Assembly: GCA_963751345.1 (NCBI GenBank)
Contig: CAVVUS010000044.1
Span: 41,274-105,273 of the forward strand
DNA from: an uncultured Chloroflexia bacterium
Lineage (GTDB): Bacteria > Chloroflexota > Anaerolineae > B4-G1 > SLSP01
Length of the DNA: 64,000 nt
Direction: 5' to 3'
The notes under the pieces are model-generated. The model did not search any database. It saw only the letters and a list, made by a program, of their open reading frames with translations, and was not told the DNA's origin. Made by a program: the position numbers and the translations under genes. This document shows positions 10,304 to 14,224 of the stretch, one piece after another (position 1 is the stretch's first letter; each line of letters begins with the position of its first letter).

Positions 10304-11611
10304 CTACTGCCCGATCTCAGCGAGGACGTCGAGCGCAGGCTGCCAGCCCTCGTGGTACTTGAGTGCGGCATTTAGGTCAGCTTCGGCGCTCGTCAGGTCA
10401 CCCTGGGCGATGCGCGCCTTTGCGCGCCACAGATAGGACTCCTCCAGGTCGCTCGCCGTGGCCAGCGTAGCATTTGCCAGGTCGACGACGTCGTCATAGC
10501 GTCCTATCTGATAGTAGGTCTCGTAGGGTCCGAACTGATACCAGAGCATTCGATAGTAGAGACCAAGTTCCCGCGTGGTGTCATAGGCCACAGCAGCCTC
10601 GTCGTAGCGCCCAAGAGCGGTCAGGTTGGTGCCTACCGTGAACCAGCCGTACGTCACCCAATCCGAACCGCACGTCGCGTAGGCGAAGCACGCGTCAGGC
10701 GGCGTGCCGATCTCCGCCTGCGCACGTGCCAGCGCTTGCTCGTACATCGACGTGTCATCCATATCCGGGCCGATGAGTGTTGTCAGCTCGTCCCAGCGAT
10801 CGGGTGACGCGACTACGAGATAGGTCCAATCAAAGACACGCCAGAGTTCGCCGAACTCTGCGTAGGACATATAGGTGGGCGGATCGTAGAGCGAGTCGTA
10901 CAGGTTGAGCTCTTGGGTCGTGTCGTCGTATCCGATGACCAGCCTGAAGTGGCCGAGTTGGTCGCGTGCATCGCGGACATACCACGTCTCCACGATCACG
11001 GGATAGCCGGCTCGCAGGAGCGCCTTGACCCCGTCAAGCGTACCTCCGGCGCGGACAATGGCCTTCAGCCCGCGGTCCTCGGCATACGCTGCCATCTGTT
11101 CGATGCCGACGTGCTTGTCCTCGGGATCGGGCTTCAGCACCGGGGCGATATCGGACTGCCGGTCGTCGAGACCCCAATACGACATTGCCATCCCCAGAGT
11201 GGTCGGACCGCAGTTGTTCCAGCCCTGTCGCTCGTGGCGGATGCCCTCAAGCAGCACCTGTGCCGGCGGCGTGGGAGTGATGGTGGGCGTTGGGGTGGGT
11301 GTCTCGGTGGGTAGGGGCGTGATCGAGGGTTGGGGCGTGCTGGTGGGCGGCGGGGTCAGGGTGGGGGTCGGTAGGGATGTCGGTGGTGGGTCCGTCGCCG
11401 ATGCCGCCATTGCCGCTGGAGGCGCAACCGCCGCACCGAGCGGCGTGGGAAGCGTCAAGGGGTGGTTACTGTGACGTAGCTCCTGGAGTTGTGCCGGAAG
11501 CAGACTGGCGTAGCGGCCCGGAAGGGCCCGCACGACAGTGGGGATGGCTAACAGAGCGGTTCCTACAAGAGATAGCGCCACGATGACTACGATGTAGTGT
11601 ATCTTACGCAT
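10304..11611 (-). CDS. Membrane-anchored C39-like cysteine peptidase with Pro/Thr linker and TPRs
   Basis: N-terminal TM; QGWNNCGP, HFRLVIGYD and LYDS triad; C-terminal TPRs. ATG 11611 lies 7 nt after TATAGT, so the mRNA is probably leaderless. Confidence 0.85.
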   Translation of the reverse strand: MRKIHYIVVIVALSLVGTALLAIPTVVRALPGRYASLLPAQLQELRHSNHPLTLPTPLGAAVAPPAAMAASATDPPPTSLPTPTLTPPPTSTPQPSITPLPTETPTPTPTITPTPPAQVLLEGIRHERQGWNNCGPTTLGMAMSYWGLDDRQSDIAPVLKPDPEDKHVGIEQMAAYAEDRGLKAIVRAGGTLDGVKALLRAGYPVIVETWYVRDARDQLGHFRLVIGYDDTTQELNLYDSLYDPPTYMSYAEFGELWRVFDWTYLVVASPDRWDELTTLIGPDMDDTSMYEQALARAQAEIGTPPDACFAYATCGSDWVTYGWFTVGTNLTALGRYDEAAVAYDTTRELGLYYRMLWYQFGPYETYYQIGRYDDVVDLANATLATASDLEESYLWRAKARIAQGDLTSAEADLNAALKYHEGWQPALDVLAEIGQ

Positions 11612-11647
11612 GGAGCACACTATACCAGATTTCGCGGGAGGGCAAGG

Positions 11648-12007: not shown

Positions 12008-13496
12008 TCATCCAATGACAGCGTTGAGGCGCCGGAGGGCAGCCTCGCGCCCGATCGCCTCGAGTGTCTCATAGAGTGATGGCGTAGCTTGGCGCCCTGA
12101 GATGGCAATCCGTAGCGCCATGTAGAGCTCCCCGCGCTTCCATCCGAGAGCCTGGACCTGGGCATCGAGCACGGTCGCGAGGCCCTCCGAAGTCCATTCG
12201 TCAGCATGCAACCTTGCGAGTGCCCCGGCGGCCGTGGCAAGCGCTCTCTGCAGCACCGTCCACGTATGACGCCGTGTGAAGCGATTCTGGCCCAGTAACT
12301 CCAGACAGCCTCTCAGGGTCCGGGTCATAGAAGAAGAAGGAGAGCAGGTCGGGTGCTTCGTTGAGCGTCTTCATGCGTTCTCGGACCAACGCCACGATAC
12401 TTTCCGTGCGCTCCGTCTCCCGGGCGGACCGGTCCATCACCGAGATAGGCTCTGCAGCACTAACGAGCGGCAGGACTCGCCGCGTCAGATCGGGTACCGG
12501 GAGATGTCGGATATAGTATCCGTTCATCCACAGGAGCTTGTCCCGGTCAAAGATGGCATTGGACGGACTGCAGCGGCCCAGCGAGAACGACGCCAGCAAG
12601 TCGTCAAGGGACAGAATCTCCCGGTCTGTGCCCGGACTCCAGCCGCTGAGCGCGAGGTGGTTGAGCATAGCCTCCGGCAGATATCCCATCTCCTGGAATT
12701 CCCCGATGTAGACGGCGCCGGTGCGCTTGCTGATTTTCGACCGATCGGGGTTGAGCAACAGGCCGACGTGGGCGAAGGCCGGCGGATCGAAGCCCAGTGC
12801 TTCGTAGATCTGCAACTGGGGAAACGTGTTATTGAGATGCTCAGCCCCGCGGATGACGTGCGATATCTCCATCAGATGCTCATCAATGACTGTTGCGAAG
12901 TGATAGGTCGGCATCTTATCGGATTTCACTATCACGGGATCGCCGATCAGCGCCGCGTCCTGCTCGACGCGGCCTTGCACGAGGTCCTCCAGCACCATAG
13001 GCTTGGGCGTGAGTCGCAGCCGCAGAACGTTCGGCCGGCCTGCTCGCAAGCGAGTCTGCACTTCGGAGGATGTGAGCGACGCGCAGCGTCCGTCATACCT
13101 CGGCGGGTGGCCCTCGGCCAGGGCGGCCCCGCGCTGAGCTGCGAGCTCGTCCGGCGTGCAGAAACAGCGGTAGGCCCGCCCGCTGTCGAGGAGCCGCTGC
13201 GCATGTTCACTGTACAACTCCAACCTCTCCGACTGCCGGTAGGGGCCGTAAGGTCCGCCGATGTCCGGCCCCTCGTCCCACTGGAGTCCTAACCACTGCA
13301 GCCCTTCCAGGATGCCCTGCTCAGATCGAGCGGTGGACCGCCGGCGGTCGGTGTCGTCGATCCTGAGGATGAACCGTCCCTGGTGCTGCCGTGCGAAGAG
13401 CAGATTGTACAGGGCGCTTCGCGCTGTGCCTACGTGGCAGTGCCCCGTTGGACTCGGCGCGATTCGGACGCGAATCGGGCTGGTTGGACTGGTCAT
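12008..13496 (-). CDS. gltX: Glutamate--tRNA ligase (frameshift near 12320)
   Basis: RIAPSPTG, HIGH-like HVGT, LRIDDTD, GPYRQSER, CFC...YDGRC Zn motif, KISKR. The anticodon domain (LRIAISGRQATPSLYE) is in ORF 12008-12328. Confidence 0.92.
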
Positions 13497-13520
13497 GGGT
13501 CTCTCCTGGTCTCTTGGGGG

Positions 13521-13555
13521 AACAAAAAACCAGCCTACTTGCGGGTAGGCTGGTT
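13521..13555 (-). terminator. Intrinsic terminator in the gltX leader (attenuator)
   Basis: Minus strand AACCAGCCTAC-ccgcaa-GTAGGCTGGTT-TTTTGTT, ~25 nt before the gltX ATG. Confidence 0.85.
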
Positions 13556-13587
13556 GGTGACTCAGGTCGTCGGTCAGCTACGAAGCG

Positions 13588-13659
13588 TCAACCGTCCCGC
13601 ACGGTAGGGGGGATGGACTGCTGCTCACGCTGCTGCCGGCCGACCAATGGGTGGATCAT
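13588..13659 (-). CDS. Putative gltX leader peptide MIHPLVGRQQREQQSIPPTVRDG
   Basis: ATG 6 nt after the -10 box; codons CAG CAG CGT GAG CAG CAG; stop 32 nt before the terminator stem. Confidence 0.7.
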   Translation of the reverse strand: MIHPLVGRQQREQQSIPPTVRDG

Positions 13660-13665
13660 ATTCGC

Positions 13666-13693
13666 ATCGTACAGTGGATGGCCTTATTGTCAA
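13666..13693 (-). promoter_or_regulatory. Promoter of the gltX leader
   Basis: TTGACA-16 nt-TACGAT. Confidence 0.75.
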
Positions 13694-13858
13694 ATGGTGC
13701 CGTCCGCCACCCTCGATGGCAGACGGCCGAGGAGGGGAGGTCATCGTGAGTAGCCATCGCACGGACGATTGTGGTTCACGCGCCCCGGGCGTACAATCTG
13801 CCAACGTCGTGCCCAGCCATACCTCTGGCGGCTGGGGACCTCAGCAAGGAGACATCGC

Positions 13859-14224
13859 ATGAACCCACCAACTTTCTCAGGGTGGCACTATCGATACCTC
13901 ATCATCGCGCTGGAGCAGCGGGACCCGCCGGCGCCGTGGGGCATCCACACGAACCTCGCGTTCAACGATGTTCCCGCCTGCAACTGCCCGGCGACCTTCC
14001 ATAGTGGCCTCGATGTGCACGGACGTGAACTCGGCGGGTTCTTCAATACCGACGCGACGCGGACGATCGACGCGATGGTCCCGCCCATCTCGCCGGCGAC
14101 GTGGCTCACCACACCGAACGGTGCGCCGATGCTGCGCGAGGCGATTGGTGCGGCGGCCCTCTTCGAAGGCGAGATGAGCCATCACGTCCACTTGCCCCTG
14201 GCGTTGGGATTGGGGGCGGCGTGA
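13859..14224 (+). CDS. Hypothetical protein or gene remnant ending in an xLPLx tail
   Basis: AAGGAG RBS then ATG 13859; ends HVHLPLALGLGAA; stop overlaps the xylB GTG. Confidence 0.4.
   Translation: MNPPTFSGWHYRYLIIALEQRDPPAPWGIHTNLAFNDVPACNCPATFHSGLDVHGRELGGFFNTDATRTIDAMVPPISPATWLTTPNGAPMLREAIGAAALFEGEMSHHVHLPLALGLGAA

What the first reader, a model, noticed from the sequence alone, without database searches (positions are those of the whole stretch)
13500..13693. Candidate glutamine/glutamate-sensing translational attenuator controlling gltX
Seen, in order on the minus strand: promoter TTGACA-16-TACGAT; an ATG 6 nt later (leaderless); a 23-aa ORF MIHPLVGRQQREQQSIPPTVRDG with clustered CAG CAG CGT GAG CAG CAG codons; an 11-bp terminator with a U-tract; then the gltX RBS. 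The 3' end of the ORF (GCGGG-AC-GGTTG) is complementary to CAACC...CCCGC in the terminator 5' arm and loop, and can alternatively fold locally as ACCGT/ACGGT. No T-box motif is visible. Established: leader-peptide attenuation (trpL, hisL, and pheM for pheST), and non-discriminating GluRS supplies Glu-tRNA(Gln) to GatCAB. Inference: stalling on Gln codons frees the antiterminator, so this GluRS is induced when Gln-tRNA(Gln) is short. I do not know of a described Gln-codon attenuator on gltX. Caveat: by eye the anticodon domain keeps Arg (ERMKTL) and Thr (ATPSL), so it lacks H. pylori GluRS2-type signatures.
Basis: partly seen in the sequence, partly recalled or inferred. Interest (0 to 1): 0.85.

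Follow-up and report, generated by a model that had tools for sequence, protein, structure and literature searches.

The report
Glutamine-codon attenuator before a spare GluRS
A short upstream reading frame rich in glutamine codons, followed by two competing RNA hairpins, appears to switch on a second glutamyl-tRNA synthetase gene when charged glutamine tRNA runs low, a control not described before for this enzyme.

Summary
On the minus strand lie a promoter-like site, a 23-codon frame (13659..13588), an 11-pair terminator (13555..13528) and the gltX start (13496).

The gene is an extra GluRS copy. The genome also has the ordinary gltX, a GlnRS, an AsnRS and gatB.

I found orthologues of this copy in 12 genomes of three families, and 8 of the 12 carry the same leader plan.
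- All 8 keep a Glu-Gln-Gln run and are enriched in Gln codons (P 0.046 to 1.4e-6). CAA and CAG are used in about the genomic ratio.
- The Gln frame always stops 24-36 nt before the terminator.
- A block after the Gln run is complementary to the 5' arm of each lineage's own terminator. Matched pairs average -22.7 kcal/mol against -14.8 for mismatched pairs.

No Rfam family matches, and my paper searches found no such gltX attenuator.

Verdict: a leader-peptide transcription attenuator that reads Gln codons, a new variant of a known kind. Translation of the frame, the response to starvation and the enzyme's tRNA specificity are untested.

The parts
13666..13693 (-). Promoter-like site: -35 hexamer, 16-nt spacer, -10 hexamer. 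The predicted transcript start is at or next to the ATG of the short frame, which would make it leaderless.
   Evidence: 10 of 12 matches. The same arrangement is in G002. G004 has a different promoter-like site further upstream. The transcript start is not mapped.
13588..13659 (-). Leader reading frame: 23 codons plus a TGA stop.
   Evidence: An equivalent frame ends at the same conserved block in G002 and G004. Longer equivalents occur in G215, G247, G178, G486 and G474.
13618..13635 (-). Regulatory codon cluster, codons 9-14: Gln, Gln, Arg, Glu, Gln, Gln. It is also the 5' strand of the leader hairpin (region 1).
   Evidence: Glu-Gln-Gln is present in 8 of 8 leaders. It pairs with 13598..13574 in minimum-energy folds.
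13589..13601 (-). Region 2: a 13-nt block identical in G000, G002 and G004 that overlaps the stop codon. It can pair either with region 1 or with the terminator 5' arm and loop, which makes it the antiterminator strand.
   Evidence: Invariant columns. Duplex of -19.3 kcal/mol with 13552..13540, p 0.007. It forms in the constrained fold with a ribosome on the last Gln codon.
13566..13587 (-). Stretch after the stop codon that forms the outer 3' strand of the leader hairpin.
   Evidence: The outer stem is kept by different sequences in G004. The duplex test for this pairing is not better than shuffles in the window type.
13540..13552 (-). Region 3: the part of the terminator 5' arm and loop that pairs with region 2.
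   Evidence: The loop letters are conserved in G004 although the stem changed.
13522..13555 (-). Intrinsic terminator: 11-pair stem, 6-nt loop, T-run. It ends 26 nt before the gltX start, with no room for a promoter in between.
   Evidence: The stem differs in G004 with pairing kept. Terminators at the same place were found by the scan tool in 4 of 5 further leaders and by folding in all 8.
13501..13507 (-). Ribosome binding site of the synthetase gene.
   Evidence: Read directly.
12008..13496 (-). Accessory glutamyl-tRNA synthetase gene (second copy). In this assembly one extra base at 12313 splits it into two frames.
   Evidence: Pfam catalytic domain at 6e-97. Frames. A whole 495-residue orthologue in G002. 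An independent contig lacks the base at 12313.

Best explanation
This is a ribosome-mediated (leader-peptide) transcription attenuator in front of an accessory GluRS gene.

Proposed mechanism:
1. Transcription starts at the promoter at 13693..13666.
2. A ribosome translates the short frame 13659..13588.
3. When charged tRNA-Gln is plentiful, the ribosome runs over the Gln cluster and onto region 2 (13601..13589, which overlaps the stop codon). Region 2 then cannot pair with the terminator 5' arm. The terminator 13555..13528 forms and transcription ends 26 nt before the gene.
4. With no ribosome at all, region 2 is held by the codon cluster (region 1) and the terminator also forms.
5. When charged tRNA-Gln is short (and perhaps tRNA-Glu, at the one or two embedded Glu codons), the ribosome stalls on the cluster. 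It covers region 1 and leaves region 2 free about 20 nt downstream. Region 2 pairs with 13552..13540, the terminator cannot form, and the synthetase gene is transcribed.

Shown from sequence: the elements, their conservation, the Gln enrichment, the fixed stop position, and the co-varying region 2/terminator complementarity.

Inferred: translation of the frame, stalling, read-through, and that the enzyme raises the supply of Gln-tRNA-Gln. That would most simply happen by charging tRNA-Gln with Glu for GatCAB.
For: 1. There is no promoter space between the terminator and the gene, so expression needs read-through.

2. Distribution. Orthologues of this copy were found in 3 of 71 family genomes, 6 of 401 class genomes including the window's, 4 of 5 genomes in the order of G215 and 5 of 42 in the order of G431. 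That makes 12 genomes in all. Eight of the 12 have a short frame with a Gln run, then a terminator, then the gene. None of 28 upstream regions of the ordinary gltX has it. None of 15 more distant gltX genes has it.

3. Codons.
- Glu-Gln-Gln is present in 8 of 8 leaders.
- There are 3-12 Gln codons per leader against a 3.87% background, binomial P 0.046 to 1.4e-6.
- CAA makes up 12 of 60 leader Gln codons (20%), against 17.8% genome-wide. Codon meaning is conserved, not the letters.

4. The Gln frame stops 24-36 nt before the terminator 5' arm in 8 of 8 leaders. The other two frames stop anywhere from -98 to +77.

5. A conserved block after the Gln run is read in different frames in different lineages, so it is an RNA element.
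- It pairs with the 5' arm of each lineage's own terminator at -16.4 to -23.5 kcal/mol. Shuffle p values are 0.007, 0.016, 0.021, 0.166, 0.026, 0.153, 0.025 and 0.004.
- In an 8x8 cross test, matched pairs average -22.7 against -14.8 kcal/mol for 38 between-group mismatches.

6. Constrained folds of transcripts cut before the terminator 3' arm.
- Without a ribosome, the terminator 5' arm pairs with region 2 in 1 of 8 leaders.
- With a ribosome on the last Gln codon, it does so in 6 of 8.

7. Region 1 with region 2 gives -30 to -39 kcal/mol in the five more distant leaders (p 0.002-0.066). It shares 8-13 nucleotides of region 2 with the antiterminator.

8. It is unique in the genome: of 351 terminator-like sites, only this one and one doubtful case follow a Gln-rich frame.

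9. The setting allows the proposed function. gatB is present here and in 5 of 5 other carriers tested. tRNA-Gln has a U1-A72 end pair.
Against: No expression data exist. No RNA run holds the locus, so translation, transcript start and termination are untested.

In the window's own leader type:
- There are only 3-4 Gln codons (P 0.011-0.046).
- The region 1/region 2 duplex is no better than shuffles (p 0.40-0.69).
- Most conserved letters are invariant, so they give no base-pair covariation within that group.

In GC-rich DNA other frames are often open too, so openness alone is weak evidence.

In 2 of 8 leaders (G247, G178) the model with a ribosome on the last Gln codon did not form the antiterminator. 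In G474 it formed in every state.

In the long leaders the stop codon lies well after region 2. A ribosome waiting at the stop would not cover region 2.

Two duplex tests were not significant: G215 at p 0.166 and G178 at p 0.153. In the cross test, G215 and G486 terminators pair better with a foreign block.

Shuffles kept only base composition, and I chose the test windows after seeing the data. The 8 leaders share descent and are not independent.

Glu is not enriched over the whole peptide (P 0.3-0.9).

GlnRS is present in the window's genome and in 4 of 5 other carriers tested, so a second route to Gln-tRNA-Gln is not required.

The enzyme keeps the Arg and Thr that the ordinary, Glu-specific type is said to use. 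The mapping of these residues is recalled.

Four of 12 orthologues lack this leader.
Confidence: 0.65

Rival explanations
1. The terminator/antiterminator switch is real, but the trigger is not a stalled ribosome. A trans-acting factor binds the CAR/GAR triplet-repeat RNA or the leader hairpin and frees or blocks region 2. Candidates are an RNA-binding protein (possibly the synthetase itself), an uncharged tRNA or a small molecule. On this view the open frame is incidental.
For: - The repeat region and region 2 form a long hairpin in all folds.
- In the window type both blocks are invariant at the nucleotide level.
- Other frames are often open in this GC-rich DNA.
- Triplet-repeat RNA bound by a protein controls the trp attenuator of Bacillus (recalled).
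- Translation is untested.
Against: - CAA and CAG are mixed at the genomic ratio, and GAA and GAG both occur. This fits selection on codon meaning better than on a binding sequence or on pairing.
- The Gln frame, and only that frame, ends 24-36 nt before the terminator in 8 of 8 leaders.
- An in-frame ATG lies upstream in 6 of 8 and a GTG in the other 2.
- No T-box, glutamine riboswitch or other Rfam family matches in 9 loci at E<=0.1, or in the window at E<=10.
- The hairpin loop is not conserved.
Confidence: 0.2
2. It is a leader-peptide attenuator, but what matters is Glu-tRNA-Glu, or both Glu and Gln charging by GluRS activity. The enzyme is then an ordinary or non-discriminating GluRS under feedback control, and the Gln codons are mainly structural filler that pairs with region 2.
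For: - Every leader keeps at least one Glu codon directly before a Gln pair.
- The enzyme keeps the Arg and Thr of the anticodon domain, as the ordinary copy keeps the Arg.
- Its best solved relative is Thermotoga GluRS1. A paper I read describes that enzyme as charging both tRNAs (PMC3927822, section 12).
Against: - Glu is not enriched in any leader (P 0.3-0.9), while Gln is enriched in all.
- The more distant leaders expand the Gln run to 6-7 in a row, not the Glu codons.
- If pairing were the reason, CAA would be avoided, and it is not.
Confidence: 0.1
3. There is no regulation. The hairpin is a leaky terminator or a leftover from an upstream transcript, and the short frame with a few Gln codons is chance.
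For: - The window's frame has only four Gln codons (P 0.011).
- Promoter and terminator scans are consensus matches only.
- No expression data exist.
Against: - The whole plan recurs in 8 of 12 orthologous loci across three families, with unrelated flanks in G004.
- The terminator stems differ between lineages while complementarity to region 2 is kept.
- There is only one comparable site in this genome.
Confidence: 0.05

Closest known systems
pheM-pheST attenuator of Escherichia coli: a leader peptide rich in Phe codons before phenylalanyl-tRNA synthetase (recalled, not read here)
   Same: - A short frame with a cluster of the cognate codons.
- Alternative antiterminator and terminator hairpins.
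- An aminoacyl-tRNA synthetase gene as the regulated target.
   Different: - The codons here are Gln (with Glu), while the enzyme is a GluRS homologue, so codon and enzyme names do not match directly.
- The target is an accessory paralogue, not the only copy.
- The organisms are Anaerolineae-like Chloroflexota, going by the names given to relatives.
trpL, hisL, leuL and thrL attenuators of amino-acid operons in proteobacteria (recalled)
   Same: - The three-region logic: region 1 holds the regulatory codons, region 2 pairs with 1 or 3, and regions 3-4 form the terminator.
- In the window type the stop codon overlaps region 2.
   Different: - No known member uses Gln codons. My searches found none.
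- The leaders in the more distant lineages are long, 35-70 codons.
- The window's frame would be translated from a leaderless start.
T-box riboswitches, the usual attenuators on synthetase genes in Firmicutes and some Chloroflexota
   Same: A terminator/antiterminator choice before a synthetase gene, responding to tRNA charging.
   Different: - No T-box match.
- The leader is only about 170 nt.
- The proposed sensor is a translating ribosome, not direct tRNA binding.
GluRS2 of Helicobacter pylori and Acidithiobacillus ferrooxidans, tRNA-Gln-specific second GluRS (PMC3927822, sections 12 and 15 read; PMC2777447, abstract only in a search listing)
   Same: - A second GluRS copy beside GluRS1 in a genome with GatCAB.
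- Co-occurrence with GlnRS is on record for some proteobacteria (PMC3927822, section 15).
   Different: - A different lineage: best solved relative is Thermotoga GluRS1.
- It keeps the Arg and Thr of the anticodon domain.
- Its specificity is unknown.
- No regulatory leader has been described for those enzymes in what I read.
Glutamine riboswitch (glnA RNA) and the Downstream-peptide motif
   Same: A cis-acting RNA that reports glutamine status.
   Different: - They bind free glutamine directly and are small pseudoknotted RNAs.
- No Rfam match here.
- The element here would read tRNA-Gln charging through translation.

Membership tests
Leader-peptide (ribosome-mediated) transcription attenuators | A short reading frame with a start codon between the promoter and the regulated gene | tested here: met
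   The frame 13659..13588 has an ATG 6 nt after the -10 hexamer. Equivalent frames occur in 8 of 8 leaders, with an in-frame ATG in 6 and a GTG in 2. Translation itself was not tested.
Leader-peptide (ribosome-mediated) transcription attenuators | A cluster of codons for the sensed amino acid inside the frame | tested here: met
   Gln is enriched in 8 of 8 leaders, P 0.046 to 1.4e-6. Glu-Gln-Gln is present in 8 of 8. The densest 12-codon window holds 5-11 Gln or Glu codons. Glu alone is not enriched.
Leader-peptide (ribosome-mediated) transcription attenuators | An intrinsic terminator between the frame and the gene | tested here: met
   Window. The scan tool finds one in 4 of 5 further leaders. 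Folding gives -13.5 to -28.4 kcal/mol hairpins before a T-run in 8 of 8.
Leader-peptide (ribosome-mediated) transcription attenuators | An antiterminator that uses the terminator 5' arm and is mutually exclusive with the terminator | tested here: met
   Duplex energies of -16.4 to -23.5 kcal/mol, with p<=0.026 in 6 of 8. Matched against mismatched lineages: -22.7 against -14.8 kcal/mol.
Leader-peptide (ribosome-mediated) transcription attenuators | Pairing of the regulatory-codon region with the antiterminator strand (anti-antiterminator) | tested here: inconclusive
   It is predicted in the minimum-energy folds of the window type. It is better than shuffles in the five distant leaders (p 0.002-0.066) but not in the window type (p 0.40-0.69).
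Leader-peptide (ribosome-mediated) transcription attenuators | Geometry: a ribosome stalled on the codons leaves the antiterminator strand free, and a ribosome that runs on blocks it | tested here: inconclusive
   In the window type, region 2 starts 20 nt after the last Gln codon and overlaps the stop codon, so this fits. In the long leaders the stop lies 45-57 nt after the last Gln codon, beyond region 2. The stalled-ribosome model gives the antiterminator in 6 of 8.
Leader-peptide (ribosome-mediated) transcription attenuators | Read-through rises when the cognate charged tRNA is short | not testable with these tools
   No RNA run holds the locus. This needs Term-seq or reporter work.
T-box riboswitch | Match to the T-box covariance model (specifier loop and T-box sequence) | tested here: not met
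   No match at E<=10 in the window leader or at E<=0.1 in 9 orthologous loci.
Glutamine riboswitch / Downstream-peptide motif | Match to the Rfam models | tested here: not met
   no match.
tRNA-Gln-specific GluRS2 (Helicobacter type) | A second GluRS gene beside GluRS1, with GatCAB present | tested here: met
   Three class Ic catalytic domains in the genome, with 3-4 matches in each of 5 other carriers. gatB is present.
tRNA-Gln-specific GluRS2 (Helicobacter type) | Changed anticodon-domain residues (loss of the Arg and Thr used for tRNA-Glu). The residue mapping is recalled, not verified against the Thermus structure. | tested here: not met
   Arg is kept in 11 of 11 orthologues aligned (the window's own copy was not in that alignment). 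Thr is kept in 11 of 11. The ordinary copy keeps Arg in 8 of 8.
tRNA-Gln-specific GluRS2 (Helicobacter type) | Charges tRNA-Gln and not tRNA-Glu | not testable with these tools
   This needs enzyme assays.

The most novel reading that the evidence does not exclude
The codons in the leader reveal the enzyme's job. This GluRS paralogue would be an inducible tRNA-Gln-charging enzyme. When glutamine or GlnRS activity falls and tRNA-Gln goes uncharged, the cell would switch from the direct route (GlnRS) to the indirect route (GluRS2 plus GatCAB). That would be a facultative two-pathway system for Gln-tRNA-Gln under attenuation control. It would also be the first Gln-codon attenuator and the first ribosome-mediated attenuator described in Chloroflexota.
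Probability: 0.35. Interest if true: 0.85.

Novelty: new variant of a known kind. Interest (0 to 1): 0.72.

Why it matters
Leader-peptide attenuation is textbook for Trp, His, Leu, Thr/Ile and Phe. I found no case that reads glutamine codons and none on a glutamyl-tRNA synthetase gene.

If it works as proposed, it gives a direct and testable reason why some bacteria keep GlnRS, a second GluRS and GatCAB together. A survey I read lists this co-occurrence as unexplained (PMC3927822, section 15).

It also predicts the tRNA specificity of an uncharacterised GluRS clade from its regulation alone. That clade has about 90 protein clusters at 54% identity or more in metagenomes.

It extends ribosome-mediated attenuation to an Anaerolineae-like lineage, possibly with a leaderless leader frame.

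Tried and rejected
- Rfam at loose thresholds: only chance-level hits, and none in 9 loci. T-box and known riboswitches are rejected.
- tRNA genes in the window: none.
- Protein-based scan of genome contigs: 599 relatives, the 80 kept at 37-55% identity, no orthologue of this copy. The patterns it used were generic for GluRS.
- Metagenome pattern scan with the window's 13-nt block and degenerate Glu-Gln-Gln codons: 39 loci. None had the 17-nt spacing or the leader context, so these are chance hits.
- Class-wide pattern scan for the distant leader type: matches in 38 of 401 genomes. Only the already known G178 and G247 leaders look real; the rest read like coding sequence. It gave no leader before another gene.
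- Phylum search: 15 hits at 45-50% identity without the leader.
- RiPP or biosynthetic cluster idea, prompted by the listing: rejected. The neighbours are housekeeping genes: MurJ, an M23 peptidase, HtrA, a sugar kinase and PFK.
- tRNA-mimic idea for the hairpin loop: the loop is not conserved.
- Sequencing runs: no RNA holder is listed, and the six DNA holders carry small shares. The laid contigs did not cover 13525..13800.
- Asparagine synthase search: only weak, split matches, inconclusive.
- Alifold on three sequences gave almost no covariation term.
- Paper searches found nothing relevant on a gltX or Gln-codon attenuator. Only the open library was searched, and supplements were closed.
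Full report
**Observation.** On the minus strand the window holds, in order:
- a promoter-like site, with the -35 starting at 13693 and the -10 ending at 13666, a 16-nt spacer and 10 of 12 consensus matches (the 3-kb region has 2 such sites against 0.5 expected);
- an ATG at 13659, six bases after the -10 hexamer;
- a 23-codon frame ending with TGA at 13590..13588;
- an 11-pair hairpin with a 6-nt loop and a T-run at 13555..13522;
- a purine-rich ribosome site at 13507..13501, and the ATG of a GluRS gene at 13496.

Codons 9-14 read Gln, Gln, Arg, Glu, Gln, Gln. No Rfam family matches above chance. The leader folds better than shuffles: z -2.66, with 2 of 200 shuffles as good.

**Which gene is regulated.** The genome (5.4 Mb, 49 contigs) has three genes with the class Ic catalytic domain.
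- One on contig C30 also carries the GlnRS C-terminal domain.
- One on C22 is the copy that all 40 relatives share, at 42-48% identity to the window protein.
- The window copy is a third, accessory gene.

The genome also has AsnRS and gatB. It has one tRNA gene each for Gln-CUG, Gln-UUG, Glu-CUC and Glu-UUC.

The window gene is split by one extra base at 12313. An independent contig from a coded run lacks that base, and the orthologues are whole. gatB of this assembly also lies in three frames, but in one frame in 5 of 5 other genomes. The breaks are therefore probably assembly errors.

**Orthologues and their leaders.** With an E-value limit that excludes the ordinary copy, the accessory gene was found in:
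- 3 of 71 genomes of the family;
- 6 of 401 genomes sampled from the class, including the window's;
- 4 of 5 genomes in the order of G215;
- 5 of 42 genomes in the order of G431.

That makes 12 genomes in three families.
- Eight of the 12 have the same plan upstream: G000, G002, G004, G215, G247, G178, G486 and G474.
- In G136 and G431 the gene follows another gene directly.
- G487 and G488 share a different leader without a Gln run or T-run.
- None of 28 upstream regions of the ordinary gltX shows the plan, and none of 15 more distant gltX genes does.
- G002 is syntenic with the window, while G004 has other flanks. Leader and gene therefore travel together.

**Codon evidence.** All eight frames contain Glu-Gln-Gln. 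The three close relatives have 3-4 Gln codons and the five distant ones have 8-12, with up to seven in a row. Against a background of 3.87% Gln, taken from long open frames of this genome, the binomial P values are 0.011, 0.011, 0.046, 4.6e-5, 9.6e-5, 1.4e-6, 5.6e-6 and 5.6e-3. Glu is not enriched over the whole peptides (P 0.3-0.9). CAA accounts for 12 of 60 leader Gln codons, against 17.8% genome-wide, and both GAA and GAG occur. What is conserved is codon meaning in one frame, not a string of letters.

That frame ends 24-36 nt before the terminator 5' arm in 8 of 8 leaders. The other two frames end anywhere from 98 nt past it to 77 nt before it. An in-frame ATG lies upstream in 6 of 8 and a GTG in the other two. 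Promoter-like sites precede the frames in 4 of the 5 distant leaders.

**RNA evidence.** After the Gln run comes a conserved block (region 2). In the distant leaders it is read in different frames in different lineages, so it is conserved as RNA. In each leader it is complementary to the 5' arm of that leader's own terminator. Duplex energies run from -16.4 to -23.5 kcal/mol, with 1000-shuffle p values of 0.007, 0.016, 0.021, 0.166, 0.026, 0.153, 0.025 and 0.004.

The terminator sequences differ between the window type and the distant type, and region 2 differs with them. In an 8x8 cross test, matched pairs average -22.7 kcal/mol and the 38 between-group mismatches average -14.8. The own block beats the best foreign-group block for 6 of 8 terminators, but not for G215 and G486.

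In the window the best register is 13601..13589 with 13552..13540: 11 pairs around a 2x2 loop, -19.3 kcal/mol. It covers most of the terminator 5' arm and loop.

Region 2 also pairs with the codon cluster. Minimum-energy folds of the three close leaders show a long hairpin in which the last Gln codons face the end of the frame. In the five distant leaders this pairing is -30 to -39 kcal/mol (p 0.002-0.066) and uses 8-13 of the same nucleotides as the antiterminator. For the window type the same test is not better than shuffles (p 0.40-0.69).

I also folded transcripts cut before the terminator 3' arm.
- Without a ribosome, the terminator 5' arm pairs with region 2 in 1 of 8 leaders.
- With a ribosome placed on the last Gln codon, it does so in 6 of 8.
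- G247 and G178 keep an outer stem in the model, and G474 forms the antiterminator in all states.

**Mechanism.** The parts fit the classical three-state attenuator.
- No ribosome, or a ribosome that runs on over region 2: the terminator forms and the gene is silent.
- A ribosome stalled on the Gln cluster: region 1 is covered and region 2, about 20 nt downstream, is free. The antiterminator forms and the gene is read.

The terminator ends 26 nt before the start codon, so any expression needs read-through.

Shown: the elements, their recurrence, the codon bias, the stop placement, and the co-varying complementarity.

Inferred: that the frame is translated (from a leaderless start in the window and G002), that stalling happens, and that read-through follows.

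**What the enzyme is for.** In known attenuators the codons name the amino acid whose charged tRNA the regulated genes supply. Read that way, this GluRS paralogue should raise Gln-tRNA-Gln. A GluRS homologue can do that by charging tRNA-Gln with Glu for GatCAB.

The setting allows it. gatB is present, and both tRNA-Gln genes have U1-A72 while tRNA-Glu has G1-C72. That U1-A72 is the GatCAB mark is recalled.

Several points count against a simple reading.
- GlnRS is present here and in 4 of 5 other carriers.
- The enzyme keeps the Arg and Thr of the anticodon domain in 11 of 11 orthologues, as the ordinary copy keeps the Arg in 8 of 8.
- Its best solved relative is Thermotoga GluRS1. The survey I read describes that enzyme as charging both tRNAs (PMC3927822, section 12).

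The same survey records genomes with both GluRS2 and GlnRS and leaves the reason open (section 15). An inducible back-up route is a testable answer.

**Known and new.** The closest known systems are the pheM-pheST attenuator and the trp, his, leu and thr leaders (recalled). The plan is the same. New here are the codon (Gln), the target (a second GluRS) and the lineage: relatives at 55-60% identity are named Anaerolineae or Chloroflexi bacterium in the protein collection.

Five searches of the open paper library found no gltX or Gln-codon attenuator. Subscription journals and supplements were not searched. I file it as a new variant of a known kind.

**Limits.**
- No expression data could be had.
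- The eight leaders share descent.
- The window type gives almost no per-pair covariation.
- Shuffles kept only composition, and I chose the test windows after seeing the sequences.

Noticed in passing
window 12313 (minus-strand gene 13496..12008): One extra base in a short GA repeat splits the synthetase gene into frames 12201..13496 and 12008..12370. An independent contig of a coded run lacks the base, and the orthologues are whole. It is probably an assembly error, not a pseudogene.
   Followed up: yes
G000 contig C10:223262-224124 (loci L156, L157): gatB lies in three successive frames in this assembly, but in one frame in 5 of 5 other genomes that carry the accessory gltX. This points to indel errors in the assembly.
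   Followed up: partly
L166 about 1290-1500 and L168 about 1280-1490: The orthologues in G487 and G488 share a different leader of about 150 nt. It has a promoter-like site and a GC-rich hairpin but no Gln run, no T-run and no Rfam match. It may be another kind of control on the same gene.
   Followed up: no
L163 427-495: A perfect promoter-like site (12 of 12) is followed within 40 nt by a two-way terminator-like hairpin, just upstream of the leader's own promoter. It could be a very short transcript or the end of a neighbouring unit.
   Followed up: no
L163, L165, L162, L167: inside the long leader frames, about 50-60 nt before the Gln run: A further GC-rich hairpin with differing sequence but the same position in four distant leaders. 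Its role is unknown; it may be a pause site.
   Followed up: no
window 13859..14224 (+): A 121-codon frame that diverges from the leader has no Pfam match and no counterpart in the syntenic G002 locus. It is probably not a gene. The sugar-kinase gene likely starts near 14160.
   Followed up: partly
window 10304..11620 (-): The gene downstream of the synthetase encodes a C39-like peptidase domain with TPR repeats. MurJ and an M23 peptidase follow. This is a cell-envelope neighbourhood with no obvious link to the synthetase.
   Followed up: no
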